The notes: a model not told the origin generated them from the letters alone. Counted from the first letter of the stretch, positions 1,078 through 50,480 are shown. The stretch: 64,000 bases of DNA from a virus (IMGVR_UViG_3300015050_001523:64001-128000); one strand, 5' to 3'. Translations and numbers: made by a program.

Positions 1078-1379
1078 ATGTCTTTAACGACTTTAACGTC
1101 TGAGATTGACATCATCACATATCCAGCTGGGATGCCGAAATGGCCACCTTTAACGATATGTGTGACGACACAAGTCAACTCTCGACCAGTATAGCCTTCG
1201 CTATGACCGTCGATGATAATAGCTTCTGGCCAGCGCTCAAACGGCCTGTACTCGCGCAGATGTAGGACATCGCCAACTTGGAATTGTTGGCGATCAGCAA
1301 GACGAAACTCGGCTCGCTTGGAACCATCGAGCACCGATTGAAACGGACTTGGCCAAGTCTTGAGTTCGTGCGTTGTCAT
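1074..1379 (-). CDS. ASCH/PUA-like (DUF3850-type) protein
   Basis: HELKTWPSPFQSVLDGSKRAEFR..DR..FQVGDVLHLREY..YTGREL pattern. Confidence 0.8.
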   Translation of the reverse strand: MTTHELKTWPSPFQSVLDGSKRAEFRLADRQQFQVGDVLHLREYRPFERWPEAIIIDGHSEGYTGRELTCVVTHIVKGGHFGIPAGYVMMSISDVKVVKDI

Positions 1380-1843
1380 TAATTATAGCGATCCTTAATA
1401 GTAATTCCATCTTCAGTAACAACTTTATCTGCCATTCGTAAAGGTTCTAAACCTCCGCGAACCCCCCAATCTCCCCTCGAATTTTGAAATACTTCATGGA
1501 TTTCATTAGGGCGACCCAAACAATCTGCAAAGCAGAACGTAGCTTTTTTATATCCTGAAATATTTGAAAGAATATAATTAAGAGATTTTATCCTTTTAAT
1601 TTCTTTCCAATAGTCTTGTTCAGAATATTCTTGATCATTTAAAAAATAAAATTTTCCATATGTATATTCACAAGCGGGGCCATCTTCTCGATGAAGTTTA
1701 TTGTGAATCCAATATTCTTTATCTCCATTTTTCCGTTCAATGGCAGGAAGATTTCCGTCTCGATGAAATTTATCATTTAAGTAATAAAATTTCGTTCCAT
1801 ATTGATTAATGATCAATCCGTCTCTAATAATGTTTCCCATCAT
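1379..1843 (-). CDS. HREDGPA-repeat family protein, copy 1 (long unique C-tail)
   Basis: HRDGNLPA/HREDGPA repeats plus YWKEIKRIKSLNYILSN. Confidence 0.8.
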   Translation of the reverse strand: MMGNIIRDGLIINQYGTKFYYLNDKFHRDGNLPAIERKNGDKEYWIHNKLHREDGPACEYTYGKFYFLNDQEYSEQDYWKEIKRIKSLNYILSNISGYKKATFCFADCLGRPNEIHEVFQNSRGDWGVRGGLEPLRMADKVVTEDGITIKDRYN

Positions 1844-1852
1844 AATATTTTC

Positions 1853-2569
1853 CTATAAATTTTTTACAAAATCAAATAAATTTTCTTCACTATCTGAAGT
1901 TAGAATATTTTTAAAATTTGCACGAGGTTCAAGAATTTGCAACATTTTATATAGGCGATCTGGATTATGGTCGCAAAATTCTGCCAAATTATTAAAGAAA
2001 TCTTCTTTTAACTTAAAAGTTCTCGAAATAAATTCATCACTATCAAGATCTTCTTTTGAGATTTTCGACACAAAATCTAGAAATGCATTGAAATAAACTT
2101 CATTTTGTTTAATTTTTTCAAGATCAATTTTAAATCCGGTTATTTCAAATTGATCACTCATATCAAGCTTAAGCTCTTTTTCAATTTTTTCTTGCTTTTC
2201 AGCAGTAAAATTTACATAACTTGTCATCACATAATCAACACTTGATCGTAACGCTTTCCATGTTCTTGTTGGCGGTCTTTCTTTTTCTCTCGCCCAGTTT
2301 TTAGAAAAGTTTTCAAGAAGAAAATTCTTTATTGTTGATTTATGCTCTAAAACTTTTAGAGCGGCAGAACTAACAACAGAATATGCAGCAGCAAATTCAT
2401 CCATCAAATCTGACAATGATTTATTATCGATATTTGAATCAATTGGAAAATGTGAGACCGGTTTCTCTTTTTTATAAGAGGATTTTTTATTTGTTGATTT
2501 TATTTTTTTTGGATTTAAAAAATCCTCTTTAAAGTCTTTATCTTTTTCAAGATTTTTTGCGGTTGACAT
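1853..2569 (-). CDS. hypothetical protein
   Basis: 238-aa ORF tiling with neighbours. Confidence 0.7.
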   Translation of the reverse strand: MSTAKNLEKDKDFKEDFLNPKKIKSTNKKSSYKKEKPVSHFPIDSNIDNKSLSDLMDEFAAAYSVVSSAALKVLEHKSTIKNFLLENFSKNWAREKERPPTRTWKALRSSVDYVMTSYVNFTAEKQEKIEKELKLDMSDQFEITGFKIDLEKIKQNEVYFNAFLDFVSKISKEDLDSDEFISRTFKLKEDFFNNLAEFCDHNPDRLYKMLQILEPRANFKNILTSDSEENLFDFVKNL

Positions 2570-2586
2570 TTTTGAACTTTCTTTAT

Positions 2587-2907
2587 TTATGAACCAATAA
2601 TTCTAACAGTGTAAATCTTTTTGCCTGGAATTTTTTGATCCGGTTGATGAATCATAAATTGGACTTCTAATTCTGTTGATATGTTATGGACTTCAGCTAT
2701 AACCTCTAATTTTGATAAATATTCCAAGCCTGAAATCTCTACACTATTTTTTATTGAACCATGATGTTTAATGTCAAAAATAAATGTTTTTACTGCTTTA
2801 TTAAGCCGCAAAAATTCTGATGTTTTTGCGACTTCTAGTTCTCGCCGTTCAAAATCTTCTTTTATTGCTCTGTTTTTATTTAGTTGATCAAGTAAATTAT
2901 TTGACAT
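2587..2907 (-). CDS. hypothetical protein
   Basis: Tiling ORF. Confidence 0.65.
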   Translation of the reverse strand: MSNNLLDQLNKNRAIKEDFERRELEVAKTSEFLRLNKAVKTFIFDIKHHGSIKNSVEISGLEYLSKLEVIAEVHNISTELEVQFMIHQPDQKIPGKKIYTVRIIGS

Positions 2908-2910
2908 AAT

Positions 2911-3294
2911 TTATGCTCCAAGTTTCTTGGAAAGTTCAAGGACAGGAGCAAGGAAATTTTCTATTTTGGTACTATAATCAGAAATCAAATCATATCCATA
3001 ATTTCCAAACACAAGAAAAATTGATCCAATAGGTTCATCAGATTCTTTTTCAAAAATATAAACAATTGCCTCATCTAAATTAAATAGAAGATCTTTTATA
3101 TCTTCATCATAATAAATGTCTTCCTTATCTTCTTCATATTTCTCGTCATCAATAATCTTTAAAATATGCCCAGTTTTTTTAGCTTCGTCAATTAAACAAT
3201 CAACAATTGCTAATTCTAGCATTGCACGCGCCCGACATGAATCATCATACTTATTCAAGATTTCAATATCTTTATCTGTCATTAAAATTTGCAT
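2911..3294 (-). CDS. hypothetical acidic protein
   Basis: Tiling ORF. Confidence 0.7.
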   Translation of the reverse strand: MQILMTDKDIEILNKYDDSCRARAMLELAIVDCLIDEAKKTGHILKIIDDEKYEEDKEDIYYDEDIKDLLFNLDEAIVYIFEKESDEPIGSIFLVFGNYGYDLISDYSTKIENFLAPVLELSKKLGA

Positions 3295-3305
3295 AATTGT
3301 TATTC

Positions 3306-3608
3306 TTATTCAGAAGGATCATTTAAGTGTTCAATTTTGAACAAAGTTTTCATTTTTGATGGATTAGAATCTGATGGATCTCTAGAGCTTTGGCACCATT
3401 CATAAACTTCACAAACATATAAATCTTCAGAATCGTCGCCACAAAAAAAGTTCGGAATGCTTCTTAGCATTTCTTCCAAAAAATTAGAAGAATCTTCTAC
3501 TATTGTTCCGTAATGGAGATTAAATCTACAAAGAATATAACGATCTCCTTCAACGGCTATTGAAGATTTACTATCTTGTGGAATTGAAAACATATTTTGT
3601 GACGACAT
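3306..3608 (-). CDS. hypothetical protein
   Basis: Tiling ORF. Confidence 0.65.
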   Translation of the reverse strand: MSSQNMFSIPQDSKSSIAVEGDRYILCRFNLHYGTIVEDSSNFLEEMLRSIPNFFCGDDSEDLYVCEVYEWCQSSRDPSDSNPSKMKTLFKIEHLNDPSE

Positions 3609-3625
3609 TCTGAAGATTTTATTTA

Positions 3626-3913
3626 TTATTTAACAATAATTACTGTTGGATTGGTTTCCATTGCCTGTGGCTCTGAAAGTGATGGCTCTCCATCTCCATC
3701 TCCATCTCCATCTCCATCTCCATCTCCATCTCCATCTCCATCTCCGGTCTCAGTAGAGCCAAGATCAGGGCCTGATGATGATTCAGTGGTTGAAGTTTCA
3801 ACAGCATCAACATCGTCGGTTGGGCTGCATGAAGTTCCTGAACATGCAGTAAGCATGGTTGCAAAAATTGCAGCAATTATAGTATTTTTGGTTTTGATTT
3901 TATTAGTTAACAT
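3626..3913 (-). CDS. putative lipoprotein with (Gly-Asp)9 repeat
   Basis: Basic N-terminus, hydrophobic stretch, lipobox LTAC, S/T-rich linker, GD repeat. Confidence 0.75.
   Translation of the reverse strand: MLTNKIKTKNTIIAAIFATMLTACSGTSCSPTDDVDAVETSTTESSSGPDLGSTETGDGDGDGDGDGDGDGDGDGEPSLSEPQAMETNPTVIIVK
3691..3744. repeat. hexamer tandem repeat (CATCTC)x9
   Basis: Nine perfect copies counted; encodes the GD repeat. Confidence 0.95.
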
Positions 3914-4011
3914 ATTAGTTTCTTCTCTTTCTATTTTTATATAACCGATTTATTTATCGGGAATGGCTAATTTACAATATATAAAAGGAGTTTTATACAC
4001 TTCCTCTAATT

Positions 4012-4305
4012 TTAGTTTGAAAAATTAGCAGGTTCTGGATTATAACGAATTACATGTCCTTCGTAATCAAATGGAATGTCCTTCTCATTTTCTTCTGGAT
4101 GCACAATTAGATAATTTTCTTTTTTATAAGAAGCCAAATTTGCAATGTGTTCTGTGCAAGTTTGTCCCATTTTTACTGTGTTATCCGCCCAGAATCTGGC
4201 CCTTTCATTTCGAAAGTAAACAAGAGGGTGTTTTTTACTCTGAATCATAAAGCAATGCTGCATTGAACGAGAGTAACATGAACTTAGAACGTTGTCAATG
4301 ATCAT
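4012..4305 (-). CDS. hypothetical protein
   Basis: Tiling ORF; true start may be a downstream Met. Confidence 0.55.
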   Translation of the reverse strand: MIIDNVLSSCYSRSMQHCFMIQSKKHPLVYFRNERARFWADNTVKMGQTCTEHIANLASYKKENYLIVHPEENEKDIPFDYEGHVIRYNPEPANFSN

Positions 4306-4354
4306 ATTTTTGTTGGCTTTCTTTTGTTTGTAATCTCTTTTTATGGAATTTTTA

Positions 4355-4660: not shown

Positions 4661-4662
4661 AG

Positions 4663-5980: not shown

Positions 5981-6334
5981 TTATTTTTTTAGATTTGTTA
6001 AAATATAATTGAGAGATTTTCTCTTTTTGATTTCTTCCCAATAATATTGTTCAGAGAATTCTTTTCCATTTAAGATATAAGCTTTATATCCTCTTTTTAT
6101 ATATTCAATAGCTGGTCCATCTTCTCTATGATATTGGCCATTTATATAATAAGATTTATCTCCATTAAAATATTCAATAGCAGGAAGATTTCCGTCTCGA
6201 TGAAACTTTCCATGAATAAAATAAGCTTTAGTTCCATCTTTATCTTCGAAAGCGGGTCCATCTTCTCGATGAAGAATATCATTTAAATAATGTCGCCTAT
6301 TTCCAAATTCGTCAATAATTAATCCATTTCTCAT
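5981..6334 (-). CDS. HREDGPA-repeat family protein, copy 2
   Basis: MRNGLIIDEFG start, three repeats, KSLNYILTN end. Confidence 0.85.
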   Translation of the reverse strand: MRNGLIIDEFGNRRHYLNDILHREDGPAFEDKDGTKAYFIHGKFHRDGNLPAIEYFNGDKSYYINGQYHREDGPAIEYIKRGYKAYILNGKEFSEQYYWEEIKKRKSLNYILTNLKK

Positions 6335-6342: not shown

Positions 6343-6717
6343 CTACTTTTTGATGACGGCGACCAGGTTGTTCAGCCCGGTAAGAATATAATTTAGAGAT
6401 TTTCTTCTTTTAATTTCTTCCCAATAATAAGCTTCTTCAAAATATCTTTCTCCATTTAAATAATATTCTTTATCCCCATCTGAAAATTCAATGGCAGGTC
6501 CATTTTCTCGGTGAAGCCGTCCATTAATATAATAATTTTTCTTTCCGGTCGCCCATTCTATTGCAGGAAGATTTCCATCACGATGAGTTTCTCCATGAAT
6601 CATCCATTGTTTGTCTCCATTTATATTTTCAAATGCTGGTCCATCTTCTCTATGACGTCTATCATTTAGGTAATAACTCTTATTTCCAAATTCATCAATA
6701 ATTAATCCATTTTTCAT
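6343..6717 (-). CDS. HREDGPA-repeat family protein, copy 3
   Basis: MKNGLIIDEFG start, three repeats, KSLNYILT end. Confidence 0.85.
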   Translation of the reverse strand: MKNGLIIDEFGNKSYYLNDRRHREDGPAFENINGDKQWMIHGETHRDGNLPAIEWATGKKNYYINGRLHRENGPAIEFSDGDKEYYLNGERYFEEAYYWEEIKRRKSLNYILTGLNNLVAVIKK

Positions 6718-7948: not shown

Positions 7949-7977
7949 AGGTTAGCATTGCTTTCATGTTGTGTCAA
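7949..7977 (-). promoter_or_regulatory. sigma70-like promoter (leaderless RNA ligase start)
   Basis: TTGACA-17-TAACCT, ATG 7 nt downstream. Confidence 0.7.
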
Positions 7978-8297
7978 GGCGTCCATCGATTTTTTTGAAC
8001 AAGACAATTTAAAACTTTGGGTTTATAATCGGGTGAATGCATTGAAAATATAACATCGGGTTCGTTATATTTTTTTCTAATGCTTGAAAGAATATAATTA
8101 AGAGACTTTCTCTTTTTAATTTCTTTCCAATAATATTCTTCAAGATATTCAATTCCACTTATATAATATTCTTTATTTCCATTTGGGAATTCAATTGCTG
8201 GCCCGTCTTCTCGGTGAAGAAAATCGTTTAAATAATGTCGCTTAGCCTTATCACTAATTTTAATAAAAATTCCAGTTTTCTTCATTTTTATTCCCAT
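7974..8297 (-). CDS. HREDGPA-repeat family protein, copy 4 (single repeat; start probably 8285)
   Basis: HREDGPA plus KSLNYILSS. Confidence 0.75.
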   Translation of the reverse strand: MGIKMKKTGIFIKISDKAKRHYLNDFLHREDGPAIEFPNGNKEYYISGIEYLEEYYWKEIKKRKSLNYILSSIRKKYNEPDVIFSMHSPDYKPKVLNCLVQKNRWTP

Positions 8298-8722
8298 CTA
8301 TATATTTTTGTTTTATTTTTTATTATTTTTTTCAAGTATTCGCAAAAAATAAAATTGAGAGATTTTATTCTTTTGATTTCTTCCCAATAATCTTGTTCGG
8401 AAAATCTTATATGATTTAAGTAATAATGATTTCCATTAGCAAACTCTCTAGCTGGACCGTTTTCTCTATGATATTTTCCATAAACAAGATAAGTCTTTTC
8501 TCCATTTGGCCATTCAATGGCAGGAAGATTTCCTTCTCGATGAAGTTTTCCATGAAGATAGTAAAATTTATTTCCGCTTAGAAATTCAACAGCAGGACCA
8601 CCTTCTCTATGAAGAAGACCATTTAAATAATAATATTTGGTTCCAGATTCATCAATAATTAATCCATTTTTCATATTTTATTCCCACCTGTATATTTTTG
8701 TTTTATTTTCTATTATTTTTTT
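8284..8722. repeat. ~48-bp imperfect direct repeats (8284-8332 and 8675-8722)
   Basis: Both encode KKII(K/E)NKTKIYRWE* and precede an HREDGPA gene start. Confidence 0.85.
8288..8674 (-). CDS. HREDGPA-repeat family protein, copy 5
   Basis: Three repeats, KSLNFIF; tail shared with 8678..9118. Confidence 0.85.
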   Translation of the reverse strand: MKNGLIIDESGTKYYYLNGLLHREGGPAVEFLSGNKFYYLHGKLHREGNLPAIEWPNGEKTYLVYGKYHRENGPAREFANGNHYYLNHIRFSEQDYWEEIKRIKSLNFIFCEYLKKIIKNKTKIYRWE

Positions 8723-9118
8723 AATAAATTCATCAGAAGGTTTTTCTAGTTCTTGTGGGGTGTCCTCATCTGCCATAAAGAATTTTTGAGGTTCATTAAA
8801 TGTATTTATTGTTTTTTCAAGTTCAAAATTTGGAGTTGCAACAATCCCCAATCTAAAAGATTGTTCATCCATAAAAGTTTCTAAACTATACCATTTTACA
8901 ACAGATATATCTGGAAGAAATAAAGTCGATATTCCAGCTGGAATATCTTCATTAAAAACATTTCCTCTATGATAATTTATGATTTGTTTTGATTTGATAA
9001 GAATAGATTTTATAATACATCCTCCTGGAACGTTCATGGCTTCTGTATCATTTCCAATTGAATACCATCTATTTTGAGAAATATTTGGTTTGTTAATATA
9101 AATTTTATTATTTATCAT
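8678..9118 (-). CDS. hypothetical protein
   Basis: Tiling ORF; C-terminus duplicated in the downstream gene. Confidence 0.7.
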   Translation of the reverse strand: MINNKIYINKPNISQNRWYSIGNDTEAMNVPGGCIIKSILIKSKQIINYHRGNVFNEDIPAGISTLFLPDISVVKWYSLETFMDEQSFRLGIVATPNFELEKTINTFNEPQKFFMADEDTPQELEKPSDEFIKKIIENKTKIYRWE

Positions 9119-9417
9119 ATAAATCTCTCTTTAATATTTCGGCAAAATTTTGAAAGAATATTATTAAGAGATTTTCTCTTTTTAATTTCCTGCCAATAAT
9201 CTTCTTTAGAATATTCAATATTATTTAAAAAGAAATATTCTCTTCCGTCTGGCATTAAAATGGCAGGCCCATCTTCTCTATGAAGAAGATGTCCATTAAT
9301 AATCCACTGTTTCTCGCCGTTCACCCATTCAATAGCAGGCCCATCTTCTCTATGAAGCTTATTATTTACATAATAACATTTGGTTCCACGGCCATTAACA
9401 ATTAATCCATTTAGCAT
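9115..9417 (-). CDS. HREDGPA-repeat family protein, copy 6
   Basis: Two repeats, KSLNNILS. Confidence 0.85.
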   Translation of the reverse strand: MLNGLIVNGRGTKCYYVNNKLHREDGPAIEWVNGEKQWIINGHLLHREDGPAILMPDGREYFFLNNIEYSKEDYWQEIKKRKSLNNILSKFCRNIKERFI

Positions 9418-9428: not shown

Positions 9429-11924
9429 TTATTTGATCTTTAATTTATTTTCACTAAGAACCATTTTGACAACGGTTCCTTGTTTTACATTGTTTGTAAG
9501 AAGATATTCAGAAAGAGGTTTCAAAATTTCTTGTTTCATTAGCCTCTTTAAAGGTCGTGCGCCATATTTTGGATCATATCCATTTTCAGCTAACCATTCA
9601 CGAGCTTCAGTTGAAAGTTCTAAACTTAAATCTCTTTCACCAAGTCTTTTTTGAAGAGATTTCATTTGAATATCAAGAATGTTTATCATGTGCTCTTTGT
9701 AAAGAGGATGAAAGTAAATCATTGAATCAATTCTATTTAGAAACTCTGGTCGAAATTTGCTTTGAAGCAACTTATCTCTCGCTTCGCTAAGAGATTCTTC
9801 GTCATGATCTTGAAAATAAAGCTCTGAGCCAATATTTGAAGTTAACAATATTATTGTATTGGTAAAATCAACTGTTCTTCCTTGAGTATCTGTTAATCTT
9901 CCTTCATCAAAAACTTGAAGCATGATATTCCAAACATCTGGATGTGCTTTTTCTACTTCATCTAAAAGAACAATTGAATATGGTCGATGTCGTACAGCTT
10001 CAGTTAATTGCCCTCCTTCACTATATCCAACATATCCAGGAGGAGAACCTACCAAACGGGAAACAGAATGTTTCTCCATGTATTCACTCATATCAATTCT
10101 TACAATTGCTGATTCATCATCAAATAAGAATTCAGCAAGAGCCTTGGCTAATTCGGTTTTGCCAACACCGCTAGGACCAAGAAACAGAAAGGTTCCGACC
10201 GGCGCTTTTGGATCGGTTAGTCCTGCGCGGCTTTGGCGAATAGCATCAGAAATCGCAGAAATTGCTGGGTGTTGCCCAACAACTCTTTCATGCAATCTAT
10301 CTTCCATTAACATAAGAGAACTTTGGGTTTTTTGCTGAAGCATTTTTTCAGCAGGAATTCCTGTCCATGAAGAAATAACTTTTGCAATATCTGCTTCTTC
10401 AACTTTGTCTCGAAGATAGCTACATCCTGACTCTTGAATCTTTTTCAGAAGATCGGCATATTTTGAATACTGTTTTTCTAGTTGAGGAATATCAACATTC
10501 AAAATATTTTTTGCCAAATCAAGATTATCATCTTTTTCAGCATTTTTGACGGAATTCTTCAATGCCTCTATTGATTCAGTAATTGATTTTATTTTGCCAA
10601 TTGCTGTTTTCTCTTCTTCCCAAGAAGCTCTCATTTTCTCAACTTCAGATTCTAATTTTTTAATTTCATTATTTATTTTGATTTTTCGTTCTTTATTTTT
10701 TCTTGACTCTTCAAGGGATGAAGATTCTACATTCAACCGAAGAATTTTTCGTTCTTTTTCATCGATAACAGCCGGAAGACTTTCGATATCCATTTTCAAT
10801 TCTGCGCAAGCCTCATCAACCAAATCAATAGCTTTGTCTGGGAGACTTCTGTTTTGAATATATCGAGCACTTAGTTTTGCTGCTGCAATAAGGGCAGAAT
10901 CTTGAATAGTTAATCCATGATGATTTTGGAACTTATCGCGCAATCCTCGCAAAATGGCAATTGAATCTTCAATTGATGGCTCATTGATTCGGATTGACTG
11001 AAATCGTCGCTCTAGCTGTGGATCTTTTTCAATATATTTTTTGTATGCATCAGTTGTAGATGCGCCAATGCAACGAATTTCTCCATTGGCCAAAGCTGGT
11101 TTTAGAATGCTTGCAGCATCTTGGCCACTCTCGCTTGAACCTGTTCCCATAATGTTATGAAGATCATCAATAAATAAAATGATATCTTTTGCTTTTGAAA
11201 TGGAGGTAATAACTCCTTTTAGTCTTTCTTCAAACTGTCCTCGAAACTGGGCTCCTGCCACAAGGCTTGATAGATCAAGCTGCAAAATGGTAATATTTTT
11301 TAGAGAATCAGGAACATCATTCTTTGCAATTCTTTGAGCGATTGCAAAAACGATGCTCGTTTTACCAACCCCAGACTCTCCAATAATAACAGGATTATTT
11401 TTATTTCTTCGGCTTAAAGTTTGAATTGCCCGACGAACTTCTTGATCTCGACCAATTACAGGGTCGAGCTGGTCTTGCCTTGCAAGCCTGGTGAGGTCCC
11501 TGGTATAATTTGATAGCTCTTCTCCATATTCTTTGGGCGACACAACTTTATTGAGATCAAGTCCTTCTAAAATATGTTTGGTAGCATTTAATTCCATCAT
11601 TGCAAGAATTAAATGGTCAACAGATATTGTATTTTTTGTTTTTGTTGCAGCGACATTAAGCATTTCTTCAATATCGCTTGAATTTCTGGGATCACCAAAC
11701 CTATTGGTTCTAGGAATCTTTGTTAGTTCTTCTTTCAGACTCAAAGAAATGTCTTTAAGAGAACCTCCTGCATTTTTAATTAGAGCCTTATTTTTTTCAT
11801 CATGAATAAGCACAGCCAAAACATGAAGGGTTGTAAACTCCTGATGTTTTAGTCTTTTTGCTTGTTCAACTGCTTTAACAATAATTTTTCGGGCTGATTC
11901 TGAAACGTTTGATGGATTAAACAT
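9429..11924 (-). CDS. clpB: ClpB chaperone/disaggregase
   Basis: Clp N domain, LDPVIGRD, GESGVGKT, coiled-coil M domain, FLFLGPSGVGKTELAKALA, RIDMSEYME, GARPL; no IGF/IGL loop seen. Confidence 0.95.
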   Translation of the reverse strand: MFNPSNVSESARKIIVKAVEQAKRLKHQEFTTLHVLAVLIHDEKNKALIKNAGGSLKDISLSLKEELTKIPRTNRFGDPRNSSDIEEMLNVAATKTKNTISVDHLILAMMELNATKHILEGLDLNKVVSPKEYGEELSNYTRDLTRLARQDQLDPVIGRDQEVRRAIQTLSRRNKNNPVIIGESGVGKTSIVFAIAQRIAKNDVPDSLKNITILQLDLSSLVAGAQFRGQFEERLKGVITSISKAKDIILFIDDLHNIMGTGSSESGQDAASILKPALANGEIRCIGASTTDAYKKYIEKDPQLERRFQSIRINEPSIEDSIAILRGLRDKFQNHHGLTIQDSALIAAAKLSARYIQNRSLPDKAIDLVDEACAELKMDIESLPAVIDEKERKILRLNVESSSLEESRKNKERKIKINNEIKKLESEVEKMRASWEEEKTAIGKIKSITESIEALKNSVKNAEKDDNLDLAKNILNVDIPQLEKQYSKYADLLKKIQESGCSYLRDKVEEADIAKVISSWTGIPAEKMLQQKTQSSLMLMEDRLHERVVGQHPAISAISDAIRQSRAGLTDPKAPVGTFLFLGPSGVGKTELAKALAEFLFDDESAIVRIDMSEYMEKHSVSRLVGSPPGYVGYSEGGQLTEAVRHRPYSIVLLDEVEKAHPDVWNIMLQVFDEGRLTDTQGRTVDFTNTIILLTSNIGSELYFQDHDEESLSEARDKLLQSKFRPEFLNRIDSMIYFHPLYKEHMINILDIQMKSLQKRLGERDLSLELSTEAREWLAENGYDPKYGARPLKRLMKQEILKPLSEYLLTNNVKQGTVVKMVLSENKLKIK

Positions 11925-17200: not shown

Positions 17201-17581
17201 TCATTCATTTGATAATCTTTTTTTTAGATTTGAAAGAATAAAATTAAGAGATTTTCTCCTTTTAATTTCTTTCCAATAATCTTTTTTTGTAAAAAAGATA
17301 TAATTGTTTAAATAATAATGACTCATTCTGCCTGTTTCGCCTGTTGCTGTATGAAAAGCTGGTCCGTCTTCTCTATGATATTCTCCATGAATAAAATAAG
17401 ACTTATCTCCGTTTGCAAATTCAATTGCAGGAAGATTTCCCTCTCGATGCCGTTCTCCATAGAGATACCATGCTTTATATCCATTATTATATTCAACAGC
17501 AGGACCATCTTCTCTATGAAGAAGATCGTTTAACCAATATCTCTTTACTCCATTATTACTAATAATTAATCCATTTTTCAT
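17201..17581 (-). CDS. HREDGPA-repeat family protein, copy 7
   Basis: Three repeats, KSLNFILSN. Confidence 0.85.
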   Translation of the reverse strand: MKNGLIISNNGVKRYWLNDLLHREDGPAVEYNNGYKAWYLYGERHREGNLPAIEFANGDKSYFIHGEYHREDGPAFHTATGETGRMSHYYLNNYIFFTKKDYWKEIKRRKSLNFILSNLKKRLSNE

Positions 17582-19891: not shown

Positions 19892-19921
19892 TCAATATGG
19901 CAATATTAATCCATTTCTCAT
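19892..19921 (-). pseudogene. 5' stub of an HREDGPA-family gene (MRNGLILPY*)
   Basis: AAATATGAGAAATGGATTAAT matches the starts of copies 2 and 8, then stops after 9 codons. Confidence 0.6.
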
Positions 19922-21988: not shown

Positions 21989-22384
21989 TTAAATTCCAAG
22001 CTTATTTTTTAAGCGTTCTAATTCTTTTAAATCTCTTTTAAGCTGCTCTTCTTCTGATTTTTGTTTTTTTTGTTCTCTCTCTTCTTGTTCTTGTTTTTTT
22101 CTAATAGAAACTTTTTCATAAGTTGCATTGTTTATTAGCTCTTGAAAATCTTCTGGGAGGTTTTCATTTGTAAAAAGCTTATATTCATATTCTGCATGCC
22201 AATTTTCCTTTGGCTGTGCTTCATATTCTGAAATTTTTTCAATCAGGTTATTCTGATCTGAAAATTCATATAATGAATTATATGAATCTAAAGCATCATA
22301 AGCACCAAATCCATAAGTTATAGAAGAGTATTCTCTAATAACAACAAGAACATATGGAAGACTTTTTATGATATCAAGATTCAT
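21989..22384 (-). CDS. hypothetical protein
   Basis: Tiling ORF with charged C-terminal helix. Confidence 0.65.
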   Translation of the reverse strand: MNLDIIKSLPYVLVVIREYSSITYGFGAYDALDSYNSLYEFSDQNNLIEKISEYEAQPKENWHAEYEYKLFTNENLPEDFQELINNATYEKVSIRKKQEQEEREQKKQKSEEEQLKRDLKELERLKNKLGI

Positions 22385-22692
22385 TTGGATATATTTCCTG
22401 CTTTATTGAATAATTCTTTCAAATTTGAAAGAATATAATTAAGAGATTTTCTCCTTTTAATTTCTTTCCAATAATTTTCTTCAGAAAATTCTTTTCCATT
22501 TATAAGATAAAATTTGGTTCCACTTGAATTTTCAACAGCCGGACTATCTTTTCGATGAAGAATCCCTTTTATATAATAAGATTTATCTCCACCTAAATAT
22601 TCGCAGGCCGGAAGATTTCCTTCTCGATGAAATTGCCCATTTAAATAATATCGTTTGGTTCCATATGCATCAATAATTAATCCATTTCTCAT
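22381..22692 (-). CDS. HREDGPA-repeat family protein, copy 8
   Basis: Two repeats, KSLNYILSN. Confidence 0.85.
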   Translation of the reverse strand: MRNGLIIDAYGTKRYYLNGQFHREGNLPACEYLGGDKSYYIKGILHRKDSPAVENSSGTKFYLINGKEFSEENYWKEIKRRKSLNYILSNLKELFNKAGNISK

Positions 22693-25503: not shown

Positions 25504-25821
25504 TTAAATTTTAATGAAATCTTTTTTAAGATTTGAAAGAATAAAACTAAGAGACTTTCTCCTTTCAATCTCTTTCCAATAATCTTCTTCAGAATATCTT
25601 CTATCGTCTAAATAATAGTCATAATCTTTATTTCCCCATTCGATAGCAGGGCCGTCTTCTCTATGAAGTTTTCCATGGATTCTCCATTCTTTGGTTCCAC
25701 CATATTTATCTTCGAAAGCGGGTCCATCTTCTCGATGGAGCTTGTCATTTAAAAAATACCACTTGGTTCCTAATTTATATAGATCAACATGTAACCCGTT
25801 CATTATAGACTGATTTTTCAT
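25504..25821 (-). CDS. HREDGPA-repeat family protein, copy 9
   Basis: Two repeats, KSLSFILSN. Confidence 0.85.
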   Translation of the reverse strand: MKNQSIMNGLHVDLYKLGTKWYFLNDKLHREDGPAFEDKYGGTKEWRIHGKLHREDGPAIEWGNKDYDYYLDDRRYSEEDYWKEIERRKSLSFILSNLKKDFIKI

Positions 25822-37719: not shown

Positions 37720-38106
37720 TTATTTTAAAGTAGGACATTTAATATAACATTTAATATTTGAAAGAATGCAATTAAGGGATTTTCTTTTCTTGATTTCTTC
37801 CCAATAATCTTGTTCAGAATATTTTTTCCCATTTAAATAAAAATAATTATTTTTATTTTCGTCGTTTTTTTCCCATTTATAAGCTGGGCCATCTTCTCTA
37901 TGATATTTCCCGTTGACGAAATAAGATTCATCTCCATTATGATATTCAATGGCAGGAAGATTTCCTTCTCGGTGACGTCTTCCATGAACAAACCATTCTT
38001 TGGTTCCATTTAACCTTTCAATGGCAGGACCGTCTTCTCGGTGAAGAAAACCATTAAAATAATAACAATTATTTCCACAACTATCAACATTTAATCCATT
38101 TTTCAT
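37720..38106 (-). CDS. HREDGPA-repeat family protein, copy 11
   Basis: Three repeats, KSLNCILSN. Confidence 0.85.
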   Translation of the reverse strand: MKNGLNVDSCGNNCYYFNGFLHREDGPAIERLNGTKEWFVHGRRHREGNLPAIEYHNGDESYFVNGKYHREDGPAYKWEKNDENKNNYFYLNGKKYSEQDYWEEIKKRKSLNCILSNIKCYIKCPTLK

Positions 38107-40084: not shown

Positions 40085-40630
40085 TCAATACCAGATTTTA
40101 GTATCTTTTATAATATTTGATTCTAAAGAGCGAAGAAGATTTCTATTATATCCAAGAATTCTATCGATTAAGGTTACCATACGACGATTCGGAAGAATTT
40201 GTTGTTTTACATCTAGCAATTGATTAATTGCCAAATCTGCACTTTCTTGAGAGGGCTCAAGTCTTTGTGCTAAAATTGCTAGAGCAGCGGCAGAACTTCT
40301 AGAAATGCCAGCACCACAATGAACTAAAACATTTACATTATCTTTATTTTCTGAATCGTTAAAAGCTTTATTGACCAATTTTGCGAAATCAATAATTTGA
40401 ACCATATCATTATGTGATGGCAAAATCATGTCTCCACGAATTTTTGTCAAATCATAAAATGATAAAACAAGATGTTCTCCATTATGATTTGATAGATTTG
40501 CAGGAGGATTTTCTCCTGGATCATTTATTGAAATTACATGAGAGATTGAAGAATTTAAACTTGGATTTTCCAATAAAGCATTTGCTTCAAATTTTCCAAG
40601 AATTCTAATATTTGGATGGTTATTGTTCAT
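40085..40630 (-). CDS. CX5R protein tyrosine/dual-specificity phosphatase
   Basis: HVISI.DP, VLVHCGAGISRS, PNRRMV. Confidence 0.88.
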   Translation of the reverse strand: MNNNHPNIRILGKFEANALLENPSLNSSISHVISINDPGENPPANLSNHNGEHLVLSFYDLTKIRGDMILPSHNDMVQIIDFAKLVNKAFNDSENKDNVNVLVHCGAGISRSSAAALAILAQRLEPSQESADLAINQLLDVKQQILPNRRMVTLIDRILGYNRNLLRSLESNIIKDTKIWY

Positions 40631-41027
40631 AGTTTATCCCAAATTTCTTTTTCATATTCGAAAGAATATAATTCAGAGATTTTCTCCTTTTAATTTCTTT
40701 CCAATAATTTTGTTCAGAAAATTCTATTCCATCTAAATAATAAAATTTTGTTCCATTTACATATTCAGAAGCAGGTCCATCTTCTCGATGAGCCTTTCCG
40801 TGAATATAGTAAAATTTGTCTCCATTAGAAAACTCAACAGCAGGAAGATTTCCATCTCGATGCATTTCTCCATTAATGCACCAATATTTGGTTCCACTTA
40901 GATATTCAATTGCTGGGCCGTCTTCTCGATGAAACCTGTCATTTAAATAATATTTAATTGAAACATCATCAACAATTTTGCCATTTTTTGGTTTTGATTT
41001 ATTGTTTTCCATAACTGTATCATCCAT
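40620..41027 (-). CDS. HREDGPA-repeat family protein, copy 12
   Basis: Three repeats, KSLNYILSN. Confidence 0.85.
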   Translation of the reverse strand: MDDTVMENNKSKPKNGKIVDDVSIKYYLNDRFHREDGPAIEYLSGTKYWCINGEMHRDGNLPAVEFSNGDKFYYIHGKAHREDGPASEYVNGTKFYYLDGIEFSEQNYWKEIKRRKSLNYILSNMKKKFGINYEQ

Positions 41028-46232: not shown

Positions 46233-46242
46233 AGAATTTTCT

Positions 46243-46698
46243 TTAAAATTTATTTAGGATTTGAATGGCGAACCAACATAAAAATCCAATAAATGATGCG
46301 CTCAAGAGAAATCCGCAAAACCACATAAAATAAATCATTTTTTCCATTTTATTTTTTCCTTTTAATTGTTTTTTAACTTTCAAATTTTTACAATAATCTT
46401 CTTTTGAAAAGAAGCGTTTCCCATTTAAAAAATACCATTTGTCTCCATTGGAATGTTCAATTGCAGGGCTGTTTTCCCGATGAAGAAGATCATTTATATA
46501 CCAAGATTTAGTTCCGTCAGAATATTCAACAGCAGGACCATCTTCTCGATGGCGTTTTCCATTGATATACCAAACTTTGGTTCCTTTTGGATTCTCCCAT
46601 GCAGGACCATCTTCTCTATGAAGAATATCATTTACAAAATAAACCCTGATCCCATCTTTTGGGTCAATAAATAATCCATTTTTCATATTTTTCATCAT
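46243..46698 (-). CDS. HREDGPA-repeat family protein, copy 13 (C-terminal TM instead of KSLN motif)
   Basis: Three repeats, hydrophobic tail. Confidence 0.8.
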   Translation of the reverse strand: MMKNMKNGLFIDPKDGIRVYFVNDILHREDGPAWENPKGTKVWYINGKRHREDGPAVEYSDGTKSWYINDLLHRENSPAIEHSNGDKWYFLNGKRFFSKEDYCKNLKVKKQLKGKNKMEKMIYFMWFCGFLLSASFIGFLCWFAIQILNKF

Positions 46699-47024: not shown

Positions 47025-47030
47025 AATTTT

Positions 47031-47527: not shown

Positions 47528-47866
47528 TTAGTTATCATAAATATTGCAGGAGAATTTCTCATTTGATGCTGAGAAATCATGATTATTATAATCAGCTTGG
47601 GATGGGTCAGAACACCAAGCAGATAAAATCCATTCTTCTCCGTCAAAAAATTTTTCTATAAGTTGATATTGACAAACTCGAACATCTTCTTCATTTAGAT
47701 CGGTAGGAGGATCTAGATAATAATGGAAAGAGCCATCTTTAAAGACTCCTTTTATAATATCAAAAGAACCTCTCTCCCAATTGAATTCAGTTGAGAATAG
47801 ATTATAAACTTCTTCAATTTGAAGCAGATCAAAAAAAACGTCAAGGGACCAAAATTCCATAATCAT
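47528..47866 (-). CDS. hypothetical acidic protein
   Basis: Tiling ORF. Confidence 0.6.
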   Translation of the reverse strand: MIMEFWSLDVFFDLLQIEEVYNLFSTEFNWERGSFDIIKGVFKDGSFHYYLDPPTDLNEEDVRVCQYQLIEKFFDGEEWILSAWCSDPSQADYNNHDFSASNEKFSCNIYDN

Positions 47867-47948
47867 ATTATTTTATTTCCTTTTATTGCTCGGGATCCAA
47901 GCCATCCACCATAGAAAGAGAAAAGAACCAGCCAAATTTCATTATTTA

Positions 47949-48317
47949 TCATGGATTTTTAATTAGTCGAGCAACAGCCCATCCATCCATTTCGGTTTCT
48001 CCGTCATCTTCTTCAGGAAAATAATTGGACACAATTGCAACATAAATTCCTGGATGGCTAAGAATATGATCTTCGAGATAGCCACCAATAAATTCTGAAT
48101 TGTGCATAATGGGTCCCATATATCGGCCGCTAGGTCCGCTTCCAGCTTGGCTAGAAAACCCAGATAGAAGTTCCCACTCAGAGGAGTCTAGCTTCCCTTC
48201 CCACAATTCAGGAGCTGAAATTGAGTTTGGTCCGTCCGTAACAGAACCGTCCTCATGAACCGTTACAATATGATCAAAGTCCATAATGCTGCTCAGGGAT
48301 TTTTGATTGGTGCTCAT
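47949..48317 (-). CDS. hypothetical protein (leaderless)
   Basis: ATG 7 nt after TTGCTC-17-TATCCT (48324-48352). Confidence 0.7.
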   Translation of the reverse strand: MSTNQKSLSSIMDFDHIVTVHEDGSVTDGPNSISAPELWEGKLDSSEWELLSGFSSQAGSGPSGRYMGPIMHNSEFIGGYLEDHILSHPGIYVAIVSNYFPEEDDGETEMDGWAVARLIKNP

Positions 48318-48357
48318 AAGAAGAGGATAGCATGAGACGAATAGAGGAGCAAGAATT

Positions 48358-48777
48358 TTAAATGGCTTCTAGATTACAATATTGAAACCATAAAGTTCCA
48401 AATTTTGGATGTTTTGTTTTGACATATTGTCCTGGAGCTACGATTTCTTTACTATTATAAAATTGAATTGTTTCTTTCGCCTTAATAATAGATTTACAAC
48501 CTGACAAATTTCCACACTGGCAACCGATTAATTCACAATTAATTAAAGACATATAAGAAAATACATAAAGTCGTTTCTTTTTTTGGTTAAATTTAATTGA
48601 TTTAGATTTTTTGTAAGGCTTCCTAAAAAGATGCCGAAAGGGAAAATGTTGGCATCTAATTGTTCCAAATAATTTTAATTTATTTTGTTCGGATAAAGAT
48701 AATTTAATGAAAGCAAATTTTTTTATAGCTGGTCGTGAATCAAACTTTATCAAACATTTTTCATTTATAGGATTCAT
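48358..48777 (-). CDS. basic hypothetical protein
   Basis: Tiling ORF. Confidence 0.55.
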   Translation of the reverse strand: MNPINEKCLIKFDSRPAIKKFAFIKLSLSEQNKLKLFGTIRCQHFPFRHLFRKPYKKSKSIKFNQKKKRLYVFSYMSLINCELIGCQCGNLSGCKSIIKAKETIQFYNSKEIVAPGQYVKTKHPKFGTLWFQYCNLEAI

Positions 48778-49370
48778 GCTTCTCTTTCAAACATTGTACA
48801 TTGATTATTTGCGTCCAAAAATAATGGCCGAGAATAATTAACAGGTTTTCCTTGATCAGCATGGCATCTAAATTGTCTATCTATTTTGCCATTTACATCT
48901 TCAGACCATTTAGCGAATCGACATAATTTTCCACATGGAGTTTTGTTTGGCGGCGGAATTTGTTTCCCTGGCAATCTTATTTGTGCCAAAACTGCACCAT
49001 TTTTATCAACAATTTCTGCCATTACTTTTTCAAGTTTTTTCTCTCTTTCTTTAGATAGGGAAAGTTCTTCATTTGCTTCTTTAAGCTTTTTTGTTGATAA
49101 TTCGATGGTGCTTCTAAGAGAATTTAATTCTTCATTTGCATTTGTTATTTTTTGCTGAACTTCTGAATCAAGCCTGGCGCCAGGCAAAGCTAATTGGCCG
49201 CGAATATTTCCATCATCATCAAGAACCTCGACAAGAGTTTCTTCTAGCATCAACCTTTTATTTTTTTCTTCTTCAAGAAAATTAATTAATGTTTTGTTTC
49301 TCTTTGCGATATAGAAAAAAGGAATTCCAAAAACAGGAATTAAAATTATTGTAAAAATGAAATATCCCAT
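48774..49370 (-). CDS. membrane-anchored coiled-coil protein with Cys-rich tail
   Basis: N-terminal TM, heptads, C..C..C..C. Confidence 0.7.
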   Translation of the reverse strand: MGYFIFTIILIPVFGIPFFYIAKRNKTLINFLEEEKNKRLMLEETLVEVLDDDGNIRGQLALPGARLDSEVQQKITNANEELNSLRSTIELSTKKLKEANEELSLSKEREKKLEKVMAEIVDKNGAVLAQIRLPGKQIPPPNKTPCGKLCRFAKWSEDVNGKIDRQFRCHADQGKPVNYSRPLFLDANNQCTMFEREA

Positions 49371-49371
49371 T

Positions 49372-49764
49372 TTAAAAATTGATCATTGCGTATAGATATA
49401 GTTTTCCAAATAGCCAAGCAATTGTTGGAAAAATCATATAATATGAAACAAAGTGAATAAAGGTTTGTTTCATATTGGCTTTATCTTGCTTTTGCTTTTT
49501 CTCTAGATCGTCCTGGTCCTGATTTATTTCACTCTTGTCGAGTTGAAGCCAAATAATAACAGAAGAGGATCCGCTAAGCCAACTACAAATCGACCACAAC
49601 GCAACAGCGTGCCAAATCCCAATCGGAATGACACCAAGAGGGACCACAAACCATCCCCATAGCTGAGTCAAGACCCAGCCACTCCAAACTATGGCTGGAA
49701 AAAATAGTAAGAATTGAGCGAGGGAGAACCCCCAATGATTTTTATAATTTTTTTTGTGATTCAT
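49372..49764 (-). CDS. membrane protein
   Basis: Several Trp-rich TM segments. Confidence 0.7.
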   Translation of the reverse strand: MNHKKNYKNHWGFSLAQFLLFFPAIVWSGWVLTQLWGWFVVPLGVIPIGIWHAVALWSICSWLSGSSSVIIWLQLDKSEINQDQDDLEKKQKQDKANMKQTFIHFVSYYMIFPTIAWLFGKLYLYAMINF

Positions 49765-49790
49765 TTTGATTCTTTCTGACTTTATGGTTT

Positions 49791-50480
49791 TTATTCATTT
49801 TCTTTTAAATCGCTTTCAAGCCAAATTGTGGTAACCATGCAGTCTTTTGAAAGCATCATTGGATTACCATCAATATCATGTGCGTGAATTATTCCATCTT
49901 TAATATAACCAGGGCTTGATATCCATGGCTCACGACTTGGACATTCAATTGACCATCTCTTTTCTGGGTCTGAGCTGGAAACTACTACCTCAAGAAGATA
50001 TACCATTCCTAAAAATCCCGAAATAAGTAGAATGAGAATCCCAAATGGAATAATTAGGTCGGACCAGTTATCCAACACGTTCAATAAATGCCTGAATGAA
50101 AATTTCAGTTTTGCACTAACCTTTTCAAATCGAGTTGAAGGGCCAGTAACTGGAGGAATTCGATATGGATTATTCATTTGTTTAATTTCTTTCCAATACT
50201 CTTGTTCTGAAAATTCTTTTCCTTCTATATAAAATAAGGTATATCCATCAAAATATGAGAATGCCGGGCCGTCAAGCTTATGAAGTTCTCCATTTTTATA
50301 CCAAAATTTTGATCCATTTGCAAATTCAACAGCAGGACCATCTTCTCGGTGAAGCTTTCCTTCAACCCACCATTCTTTGGTTCCATTTATCCATTCAACA
50401 ACATGGCCGTTTTCTTGTTTATATGTTTTATTTATCTCAGGAAACATGGCTGCCCATTGCCGCCATCTTGTCAAAAACAA
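49791..50480 (-). CDS. HREDGPA-repeat family protein, copy 14, fused to TM and extra domain (start probably MFPE)
   Basis: HREDGPA/HKLDGPA, EFSEQEYWKEIK, then TM. Confidence 0.75.
   Translation of the reverse strand: MFLTRWRQWAAMFPEINKTYKQENGHVVEWINGTKEWWVEGKLHREDGPAVEFANGSKFWYKNGELHKLDGPAFSYFDGYTLFYIEGKEFSEQEYWKEIKQMNNPYRIPPVTGPSTRFEKVSAKLKFSFRHLLNVLDNWSDLIIPFGILILLISGFLGMVYLLEVVVSSSDPEKRWSIECPSREPWISSPGYIKDGIIHAHDIDGNPMMLSKDCMVTTIWLESDLKENE

What the first reader, a model, noticed from the sequence alone, without database searches (positions are those of the whole stretch)
1379..50480. Fourteen dispersed HREDGPA-repeat genes with sharp DNA boundaries and borrowed C-termini
Seen: 14 paralogs (1379, 5981, 6343, 7974, 8288, 9115, 17201, 22381, 25504, 33091, 37720, 40620, 46243, 49791). 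Each is built from 1-3 units of HREDGPA or HR(D/E)GNLPA in differing order. Most start with ATGA(A/G)AAATGGATTAAT. Twelve end in a conserved ~50-nt block (YW.EIK.RKSLNYILSN), after which similarity stops abruptly and the frame runs into unrelated tails of a few to ~60 aa; two swap the block for TM fusions. Inference: a cassette without its own stop codon that spreads and shuffles repeat units, giving a diversified binder or decoy repertoire (for example anti-defence). The shared C-terminal helix could dock onto one common partner. The repeat itself is familiar from hypothetical phage and giant-virus proteins; the defined module ends and the copy density are what stand out.
Basis: partly seen in the sequence, partly recalled or inferred. 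Interest (0 to 1): 0.75.

Follow-up and report, generated by a model that had tools for sequence, protein, structure and literature searches.

The report
Expanded MORN-like repeat gene family in phage
A 322-kb uncultured T4-like phage carries 35 small genes (14 in this window) for MORN-like beta-hairpin repeat proteins with shared end caps. They look like an old, mostly vertically inherited gene-family expansion, not a stop-less mobile cassette, but both ends are unusually conserved at silent DNA sites.

Summary
All 14 genes are real, all on the minus strand. They belong to a family of 35 genes (5.3% of a 322,518-bp T4-like phage). Each protein has an N-cap strand (MKNGLIID), one to three 23/24-residue HREDGPA units and a C-terminal helix (YWKEIKRRKSLNYILSN); AlphaFold pLDDT is 94.6. 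Its structural neighbours are MORN proteins. By sequence the repeat is Pfam DUF6745, with 32,597 cluster representatives in public data.

The "differing order" is a fixed D-N-D plan with units deleted. DNA similarity starts at the start codon. It fades over about 25 nt after the C-block, with no common breakpoint.

Synonymous sites in the repeat cores are near saturation. No reverse transcriptase or site-specific recombinase is present, and a PHI test shows no mosaicism. Closest relatives carry copies at matching positions with matching tails. More distant syntenic relatives have none, so the family spread once and has since been inherited vertically.

The N-cap and C-block keep their silent sites, also in another phage. 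The C-block is an imperfect palindrome whose codons favour a hairpin, and its cause is open.

Function (a set of binders) is inferred. This scan has met such families in at least 10 genomes.

The parts
1379..1843 (-). Family gene, 154 aa. Architecture ND. C-block at 1559-1612. 59-aa unique tail with higher GC (0.385 against 0.283 in the body).
5981..6334 (-). Family gene, 117 aa. DND. Canonical N-cap ATGAGAAATGGATTAAT. C-block at 5990-6043. Tail KK. Tandem neighbour of 6343, 68% identical to it.
6343..6717 (-). Family gene, 124 aa. DND. This is the protein that was modelled: beta-hairpins at residues 1-92, helix at 95-123. C-block at 6373-6426.
7974..8297 (-). Family gene, 107 aa. One unit (D). 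Variant N-cap KKTGIFIK. C-block at 8079-8132. 34-aa unique tail.
8288..8674 (-). Family gene, 128 aa. DND. C-block at 8336-8389. The tail overlaps the start of gene 7974 by 10 nt.
9115..9417 (-). Family gene, 100 aa. DD. C-block at 9145-9198. Lies directly downstream of the ClpB-like gene.
17201..17581 (-). Family gene, 126 aa. DND. C-block at 17225-17278. Lies 3 nt downstream of a Metallophos gene. The syntenic Metallophos gene in the 351-kb relative L016 has no family copy after it.
22381..22692 (-). Family gene, 103 aa. ND. C-block at 22420-22473. Sits between a 180-aa gene and a 131-aa gene followed by SpoU. P0006 in a relative sits in the same order, but is DND.
25504..25821 (-). Family gene, 105 aa. 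DD. C-block at 25528-25581. Lies upstream of a PTH2 gene.
33091..33447 (-). Family gene, 118 aa. DND. C-block at 33106-33159. Lies upstream of a SprT-like gene. No copy lies at that place in L016.
37720..38106 (-). Family gene, 128 aa. DND. C-block at 37753-37806.
40620..41027 (-). Family gene, 135 aa. DND, with a 12-aa N-terminal extension. C-block at 40653-40706; this copy gave the best hairpin (MFE -14.7, z -3.8).
46243..46698 (-). Family gene, 151 aa. DDD. Degenerate C-block (YCKNLKVKKQL) followed by a membrane-type hydrophobic segment.
49791..50480 (-). Family gene. 229 aa from a TTG start; the ATG at 50447 is a more likely start. Degenerate first unit, then two D units. The block is cut after YWKEIKQ. 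After that come a hydrophobic segment and a 60-aa unique domain.
19893..19921 (-). Solo N-cap relic. A ribosome-binding site plus ATGAGAAATGGATTAAT opens a 9-codon ORF (MRNGLILPY*), 33 nt upstream of a conserved gene. Probably what is left of a deleted copy.

Best explanation
This is a lineage-specific expansion of one gene family in a T4-like jumbo phage: 35 genes, 14 of them in the window.

What the genes encode. The products are small proteins, mostly soluble. Each is a single-layer beta-sheet of 23/24-residue MORN-like hairpin repeats. The repeat consensus is H-R-E-D-G-P-A-[IV]-E-x-x-[ND]-G-x-K-x-[WY]-[YF]-[IV]-[NH]-G-x-x, which is the repeat of Pfam DUF6745. An N-terminal strand (MKNGLIID) and a C-terminal amphipathic helix (SEEDYWKEIKRRKSLNYILSNLKK) close the array.

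Why the ends look like module ends. The shared 'module ends' are these two caps. DNA similarity begins at the start codon and fades at the end of the helix because only the coding sequence is kept by selection.

How the variants arose. The ancestral plan is D-N-D. Shorter copies arose by in-frame loss of 69/72-nt units. Some copies fused with a neighbouring gene or with foreign C-terminal pieces.

History. The copies were spread into the slots between conserved genes in the common ancestor of this phage and its closest relatives. Tandem duplication is visible; how copies reached distant sites is unknown. Since then they have mostly been inherited vertically, packed inside polycistronic units without promoters of their own.

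What is shown and what is inferred. Two further points are inference. First, the proteins act as a set of binders with a fixed frame and variable hairpin positions (10, 11, 14, 16, 22, 23), possibly against host defence or toxin proteins. Second, the helix packs on the sheet in cis.
For: Family and anatomy.
Fold: AF2 pLDDT 94.6, pTM 0.78. Foldseek top hits are MORN1, MORN4 and junctophilin, with probability 1.0 and TM about 0.41. VIA Z is 5.5 for MORN4. BFVD hits include phage and giant-virus MORN proteins, E down to 9e-13. Atlas neighbours have TM 0.74-0.82, some of them MORN_2.
DUF6745: paralogue g197464 scores 43.7 bits against a cut-off of 27. Database homologues are pre-annotated PF20530.
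Age: synonymous divergence (pS) in the cores is about 0.6, which is 83% of saturation. The tree is star-like with outside copies interleaved; the 'own' label needs 7 changes, against 8.7 when shuffled.
Vertical inheritance: the order DNMK, RNA ligase, copy, 84/85-aa gene is shared with a relative's contig, and the tails are KKELSK and KKELPK. The order 2OG oxygenase, then a small gene (62 aa here, 136 aa in the relative), a 177/180-aa gene, the copy, a 131-aa gene, SpoU is also shared. P0094 has the same Gp23-like tail as g234908.
Past spread: there is no copy in the syntenic stretches of L014/L015, L016/L017, L018 or L019.
Packing: the gap to the upstream gene is -11 to +26 nt for 13 of 14 copies. 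No shared upstream element is seen beyond the ribosome-binding site.
No RT and no site-specific recombinase.
Against: Synonymous sites in the N-cap and C-block diverge much less than in the cores: 38% and 52% of saturation, against 83%. The same codons are kept in another phage, L004, where 44-47 of 51 nt match the consensus. Protein-level selection alone does not explain this.

A 59-nt perfect patch inside an 81%-identical 200-nt stretch links two otherwise distant copies, so some exchange or partial duplication of units has happened.

The positional orthology rests on gene order, gene lengths, Pfam families and tails. No DNA was available for those contigs, and the 131-aa flanking gene found no homologue by word search.

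No direct evidence bears on function. MORN and MORN_2 Pfam models do not reach threshold on the window proteins.
Confidence: 0.7

Rival explanations
1. A mobile cassette without its own stop codon copies itself into new sites and shuffles repeat units, so the tails are whatever sequence lies downstream.
For: There is no conserved stop position, and tail lengths cannot be told from random run-on (KS p 0.15 and 0.26). Copies are absent from syntenic sites in more distant relatives. One solo N-cap relic exists. Two genes are in-frame fusions with the next family gene.
Against: The cores are near synonymous saturation. Tails and positions are conserved in the closest relatives. The 3' similarity fades over about 25 nt, and fusion junctions lie at different places. 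No RT, integrase, resolvase or flanking repeat was found. No solo C-block exists anywhere in the genome.
Confidence: 0.07
2. The conserved N-cap (about 24 nt) and C-block (about 50 nt) serve as homology handles. The phage's general recombination system (UvsX/RecA-like) uses them for gene conversion, exchange of unit blocks and shuffling of the genes between copies. This would resemble the PeSL elements of T4-type phages and would keep a recombining library of binders.
For: Synonymous divergence is lower in both blocks only. Perfect matches of 56 nt and 36-39 nt in the C-block link copies that are far apart. A 59-nt patch links g54677 and g197464. Unit number differs between positional orthologues. 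A RecA/UvsX-like gene is present. PeSL-mediated shuffling is documented in T4-type phages (PMC2839356). An earlier agent of this scan reported variable family genes between assemblies of another phage (e1-5345446).
Against: The PHI test shows no recombination signal (p 0.905 and 0.579). Core data do not reject one clade for the four genes that share the KRIKSL variant (AU p 0.21). Gene conversion would also homogenise the HREDGPA cores, which share runs of up to 33 nt, yet their synonymous divergence is high. The blocks are conserved between phages too, which points to selection and not to homogenisation within one genome.
Confidence: 0.15
3. The silent-site conservation reflects RNA-level function. 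The N-cap would be a selected translation-initiation region. The C-block would be a 3' hairpin of about 19 pairs (GAAAGAA..AAGAGA-AAA-UCUCUU..UUCUUUC) that affects mRNA stability, processing or coupling to the next gene. This adds to the best explanation and does not replace it.
For: Real codons fold better than synonymous resamples: mean MFE -8.2 against -4.7 kcal/mol, mean z -1.29, with 9 of 24 below -1.64. Two control windows in the same genes give z 0.02 and -0.5. In the proposed structure 81.6% of cells are paired, against 37-54% when the partners are slid. The codons TCT, CTT and AGA are nearly fixed, although the genome uses them at 0.34, 0.32 and 0.53. The same codons are kept in L004. 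The N-cap region is less folded than shuffles, z +0.63.
Against: There is no covariation (1 double change; shuffles do as well). RNAalifold gives no consensus structure. Copies with AGAAGA or AGGATA lose the inner stem. A charged-then-hydrophobic helix gives purine-then-pyrimidine codons by itself. The copies are not independent samples, so the t-test p value is inflated. No RegA or RegB homologue was found, though those searches had no positive control.
Confidence: 0.3

Closest known systems
Pfam DUF6745 (PF20530), an uncharacterised repeat-bearing family of bacteria and phages
   Same: It has the same HREDGPA-type motif, at model positions about 55-100. A paralogue in this genome and all long database relatives tested pass the Pfam cut-off. 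The profile of the window genes finds 32,597 cluster representatives.
   Different: The 14 window proteins are short and score below the cut-off; the best is 22.4 bits against 27. The MKNGLIID cap and the YWKEIKRRKSLNYILSN helix define a narrow subfamily. That subfamily was seen only in this phage, in one IMG/VR contig (L004) and in a few metagenome proteins.
Eukaryotic MORN-repeat proteins (MORN1, MORN4/retinophilin 6JLE, junctophilins 7RXE, SETD7 N-domain) and the bacterial MORN_2/YwqK type (PF07661)
   Same: They share the 23-residue period and a single-layer antiparallel sheet of hairpins with Gly at the turns. Support comes from Foldseek (probability 1.0), VIA (Z 4-5.5) and Atlas neighbours, one cluster of which is 62% MORN_2. 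In junctophilins a long helix lies along the sheet, and MORN4 binds a helix of its partner; both points are from my own knowledge of those structures.
   Different: No MORN or MORN_2 Pfam match reaches threshold. The core motif HREDGPA is not the MORN consensus. TM is only about 0.41, and CPAP G-box sheets score as well (Z 6-6.7). The proteins are far smaller, with 1-3 units.
Expanded repeat-protein families of giant viruses (MORN, ankyrin and F-box families of pandoraviruses and mimiviruses), and the roughly 35-copy zinc-ribbon expansion of Bacillus phage G
   Same: A large virus devotes several percent of its genome to dozens of diverged paralogues of one small binding module. The phage G case is called unprecedented in PMC7824862. 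BFVD hits include mimivirus R871 and klosneuvirus MORN proteins. Pandoravirus MORN families are discussed in bioRxiv 10.1101/500207, which I listed but did not read in depth.
   Different: Here the host is bacterial and the virus is T4-like. The copies are dispersed singly between conserved genes and not gathered in terminal arrays. The jumbo-phage review I searched does not mention MORN.
PeSL regulatory cassettes of T4-type phages (Arbiol et al. 2010, PMC2839356)
   Same: Both are short repeated sequences at gene boundaries in the variable regions of a T4-like genome. Each includes a stem-loop, and such sequences can act as substrates for modular shuffling.
   Different: PeSLs are intergenic and pair a promoter with a terminator. 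Here the repeats lie inside the coding sequence, no promoter is shared, and no shuffling was shown.

Membership tests
Pfam DUF6745 (PF20530) | A score at or above the gathering cut-off of 27 bits against the Pfam model | tested here: inconclusive
   Window proteins score 12-22.4 bits. Same-genome paralogue g197464 scores 43.7 bits. Eight of ten long relatives score 28-56 bits. The family as a whole belongs; the short window members fall below the cut-off because they hold few units.
MORN repeat (PF02493) | A sequence match to the MORN profile | tested here: not met
   hmmscan at E up to 1 lists no MORN hit for 8 window proteins.
MORN repeat (PF02493) | Tandem repeats of about 23 residues that form beta-hairpins in a single-layer sheet | tested here: met
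   Unit spacing is 23 or 24 residues in all window genes. The AF2 model is all-beta up to residue 92. Foldseek's best PDB hits are MORN1, MORN4 and junctophilin.
MORN_2 / YwqK type (PF07661) | A sequence match to the MORN_2 profile | tested here: inconclusive
   There is no hit on the window proteins. Paralogue g7_942 scores 17 bits against a cut-off of 29.6. Atlas structural neighbours include a cluster that is 62% PF07661, at TM 0.74.
Diversity-generating retroelement target | A reverse transcriptase and a template repeat in the same genome | tested here: not met
   PF00078 finds nothing in the 93%-complete genome, while the controls respond.
PeSL-type mobile regulatory cassette | A gene flanked by an intergenic promoter plus a terminator stem-loop that is repeated at other sites | tested here: not met
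   The alignment upstream of the ATG shows only a ribosome-binding site above background. Gaps to neighbouring genes are -11 to +26 nt. Sigma-70-like sites are not enriched: 76 found, 89 expected.
Site-specific recombination cassette (integron-like or invertible) | A tyrosine or serine recombinase in the genome | tested here: not met
   PF00589 and PF00239 give no match, and the controls respond.

The most novel reading that the evidence does not exclude
The two terminal blocks are functional nucleic-acid elements embedded in coding sequence, and not only protein caps. The roughly 50-nt C-block would be an imperfect palindrome or hairpin, and the N-cap an operator-like start region. More than 20 dispersed genes share them, and they are kept at silent sites across phages. 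They would either co-regulate the whole family after transcription, or act as PeSL-like homology handles through which the phage swaps repeat blocks and neighbouring genes.
Probability: 0.3. Interest if true: 0.65.

Novelty: new member of a known kind. Interest (0 to 1): 0.4.

Why it matters
Large phages carry many small genes of unknown function. Here one module takes up 5% of a 322-kb genome, and the same repeat occurs in over 30,000 protein clusters without a single characterised member in the literature I could search. Showing what even one of these proteins binds would annotate a very large dark family. It would also test whether phages, like giant viruses, build sets of repeat-protein binders against host systems. 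The silent-site conservation of the gene ends is a small, testable case of a coding sequence under a second, nucleotide-level constraint.

Tried and rejected
- Homodimer prediction (two copies, alignment A1): the job gave no verdict.
- PDB sequence search with the family profile: no hit at E up to 10.
- PHROGs and NCBIfam: no family for the repeat proteins.
- Literature: 'HREDGPA' and 'DUF6745' give 0 papers. MORN-plus-phage searches gave nothing relevant. The jumbo-phage review does not mention MORN.
- Close relatives with DNA:
  - RNA-ligase query in IMG/VR: none.
  - C-block DNA pattern and the family profile in IMG/VR: only contig L004.
  - Degenerate pattern in the metagenome collection: 6 of 7 loci were chance matches.
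  - GenBank phages: only Celeribacter phage P12053L.
  - Contigs holding P0006, P0013 and P0020: gene tables but no DNA.
  - Records behind L014, L016 and L001 could not be searched whole.
- The 131-aa flanking gene found no homologue by word search.
- Sequencing runs: the best holder has 0.08 of the sampled words. The contigs laid were mostly HREDGPA cores of other organisms, and the 'joints' are repeat artefacts at 85% likeness. Nothing can be said about population variation or expression.
- Promoter idea for the C-block (TTAAAA-17-TATATT): the -10-like hexamer falls on a variable residue, and the most conserved silent sites lie in the spacer. Rejected.
- RegA or RegB as readers of the blocks: no homologue found, but the controls also gave nothing, so this is uninformative.
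- Positional identity of linkers (L1 against L2): no positional signal beyond the N-type core.
- Tails of window copies against the rest of the genome: no source found.

Full report
**Where the window lies.** The window is bases 64,001-128,000 of a single 322,518-bp virus record that is about 93% complete. Earlier notes of this scan call it an uncultured freshwater T4-like phage. GC is 29-37% over the part that holds the finding. Nearly all genes there run on the minus strand. They include a ClpB-like ATPase, an RNA ligase, a helicase, PTH2, a SprT-like protein, SpoU, a 2OG oxygenase and a Metallophos protein.

**Observation.**
- All 14 ORFs exist as described.
- A repeat-unit HMM run over all six frames finds the same 14 in the window and 35 in the genome. 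That is 17.2 kb, or 5.3% of the genome.
- The genes have one to three strong units spaced 23 or 24 residues apart.
- The order is not free. Seven window genes are D-N-D (HREDGPA, HR[DE]GNLPA, HREDGPA). The rest are that plan with units missing: ND, DD, D. One gene is DDD.
- The strict start motif is present in 5 genes and a relaxed form in 8.
- The C-block motif occurs 12 times in the window, only inside these genes, against 0.02 expected.

**Boundaries.** I anchored 22 genes on the ATG. Mean pairwise DNA identity is 0.28-0.34 upstream and 0.41-0.54 over the last 18 nt, where there is an AGGA-type ribosome-binding site and an A/T spacer. It jumps to 0.90 at the start codon.

I then anchored 24 genes on the C-block. 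Identity falls in steps: 0.94, 0.86, 0.78, 0.59, 0.57, 0.43, 0.36, and then the 0.30 background. The fall takes about 25 nt. Fourteen of 24 tails still start with K.

Copies that lost the block diverge at different places:
- after KQ in 49791;
- after KKQL in 46243;
- after RRK in g7_942, and after KKRK in g56962.

So the 5' edge is the start codon, and the 3' edge is graded without a common breakpoint. The copies are packed tightly. The gap to the upstream gene is -11 to +26 nt for 13 of 14. Sigma-70-like sites are not enriched.

**What the proteins are.** An AlphaFold model of 6343-6717, built on the 14-row alignment, has pLDDT 94.6 and pTM 0.78. It shows beta-hairpins up to residue 92 and one helix at 95-123.
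- The best PDB matches by Foldseek are MORN1, MORN4 and junctophilin, with probability 1.0 and TM about 0.41.
- VIA gives Z 5.5 for MORN4, and 6-6.7 for the CPAP G-box. All of these are single-layer sheets.
- BFVD gives phage and giant-virus relatives: several proteins of the jumbo phage Atu_ph07, Celeribacter phage P12053L, mimivirus R871, and klosneuvirus 'MORN repeat' proteins.
- The ESM Atlas lists many viral clusters at TM 0.74-0.82, some of them carrying MORN_2.

By sequence, no MORN model matches. The repeat is that of Pfam DUF6745. The window proteins fall below the cut-off, but paralogue g197464 scores 43.7 bits, and long database relatives also pass. A profile of the 14 proteins finds 32,597 cluster representatives at E up to 0.001. 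So the repeat is very common, and in the literature I could search it is undescribed.

The unit has fixed H1, R2, P6, A7, E9, G13, K15 and G21. Positions 10, 11, 14, 16, 22 and 23 are variable.

**Age and inheritance.** In the HREDGPA cores and linkers, synonymous divergence (pS) is 0.51-0.60. That is 76-87% of the value expected if codons were redrawn from genome usage. In a tree, ten copies from other phages interleave with the 24 own copies. The 'own' label needs 7 changes, against 8.7 when labels are shuffled, and no branch is well supported. The copies are therefore old.

Two contigs of a close relative (gene tables only, no DNA) show the same local orders.
- First order: DNMK, RNA ligase, family copy, 84/85-aa gene. 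This matches G000:165166-167748. The tails are KKELPK in the relative and KKELSK here.
- Second order: 2OG oxygenase, a small gene (136 aa in the relative, 62 aa here), a 177/180-aa gene, family copy, a 131-aa gene, SpoU. This matches window copy 22381. There the relative's copy has three units and ours has two.

P0094 carries the same long tail as g234908, and that tail matches the Gp23 capsid family.

In contrast, four more distant relatives have SpoU at 64-74% identity and flanking genes at up to 84%. They hold no family member in the 6-20-kb syntenic stretches, whereas the window has four copies in that interval. The family therefore spread after that split and before the split from the closest relatives.

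Visible routes of spread and change:
- four adjacent tandem pairs; the pair 5981/6343 is 68% identical and groups as sisters in the tree, though with weak support (SH-aLRT 87);
- in-frame fusion of neighbouring copies (g7_942, g197464);
- deletion, seen as the solo N-cap relic at 19893-19921.

**Tests of the cassette and shuffling ideas.**
- No reverse transcriptase, tyrosine recombinase or serine recombinase is present. One RecA/UvsX-like gene is.
- The PHI test gives p 0.905 for eight D-N-D genes and p 0.579 for 22 genes.
- Core data do not reject a single clade for the four genes that share the KRIKSL variant of the block (AU p 0.21).
- One clear patch exists: 59 identical nt inside an 81%-identical 200-nt stretch between g54677 and g197464. 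C-block matches of 36-56 nt also link distant copies.
- Tail lengths have a median of 9 and cannot be told from random run-on (KS p 0.15). The stop position is therefore not conserved, but this is equally expected for an unconstrained helix end.

**The unexpected part.** Silent sites are not equally free along the gene. Synonymous divergence is 38% of saturation in the N-cap and 52% in the C-block, against 83% in the cores. In the block, Ser is TCT in 21 of 22 genes, Leu is CTT in 17 of 21, and Arg is AGA in 17 of 18. Genome usage of these codons is 0.34, 0.32 and 0.53. The same codons stand in the three blocks of contig L004, where 44-47 of 51 nt match the consensus. That phage's other shared proteins are only 33-61% identical to ours.

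The block is an imperfect palindrome. Its real codons fold better than synonymous resamples (mean -8.2 against -4.7 kcal/mol, z -1.29). Two control windows in the same genes give z 0.02 and -0.5. In the proposed 19-pair hairpin, 81.6% of cells are paired, against 37-54% when the partners are slid. But there is no covariation, and RNAalifold gives no consensus.

I therefore treat a 3' RNA hairpin, or a DNA-level role in recombination, as open candidates. A selected start region is a sufficient reading for the N-cap.

**Verdict.** The inference of a stop-less spreading cassette is not supported. The best reading is an old lineage-specific expansion of a MORN-like (DUF6745) repeat-protein family whose shared ends are the caps of the fold. 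A binder role is inferred. This scan has already met such families in at least 10 genomes, and I found no paper on them. The silent-site constraint on the ends is the one feature that deserves follow-up.

Noticed in passing
window 19893-19921 (-): A solo family N-cap. A ribosome-binding site plus ATGAGAAATGGATTAAT opens a 9-codon ORF (MRNGLILPY*), 33 nt upstream of a gene that is 84% identical in relatives. It is the only N-cap outside a family gene in the genome, and there are no solo C-blocks.
   Followed up: partly
window C-blocks, e.g. 40653-40706 (-), 17225-17278 (-), 22420-22473 (-): The conserved 54-nt block is an imperfect palindrome (GAAAGAA..AAGAGA-AAA-TCTCTT..TTCTTTC). Its codon choice favours a hairpin, and the same silent sites are kept in another phage (L004).
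   Followed up: partly
G000:C1:7-942 (+) and 322177-322518 (+), outside the window: The contig begins and ends inside family copies, and the last copy is cut within its C-block (...EEDYWKEI). The assembly probably broke on this repeat family, so the true copy count may be higher.
   Followed up: no
G000:C1:7-942 (+) and 197464-198309 (-), outside the window: Two long members are in-frame fusions of two family genes. The second half starts with a different cap (M.PI.K....IEYRL.NG.LHREDGPA), which marks a second subfamily.
   Followed up: partly
G000:C1:54677-55045 (-) and 197464-198324 (-): A 59-nt perfect match (REDGPAFEGLNGNGHKEWW, with a rare 2-residue insert) lies inside an 81%-identical 200-nt stretch between two copies that are 143 kb apart. 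This is a partial-gene duplication or conversion.
   Followed up: partly
G000:C1:234908-235597 (+), outside the window: The tail of this family member matches the Gp23 major capsid family (24.9 bits, cut-off 24.4). The same tail is present in metagenome protein P0094. Earlier findings of this scan already reported it.
   Followed up: partly
window 9429-11924 (-): An 831-aa ClpB-like AAA+ protein (phrog_4871, E 6e-252), encoded by the phage and flanked by family copies and an RNA ligase.
   Followed up: no
window 1379-1560 (-): The 59-residue tail of copy 1379 has clearly higher GC (0.385) than the body of the gene (0.283) and has no relative in the genome. It may be a captured fragment or a real extra domain.
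   Followed up: partly
window 60000-64000: GC rises from about 0.33 to 0.52 at the right end of the window. Earlier notes of this scan describe a cassette array with sigma-54-like junctions starting there.
   Followed up: no
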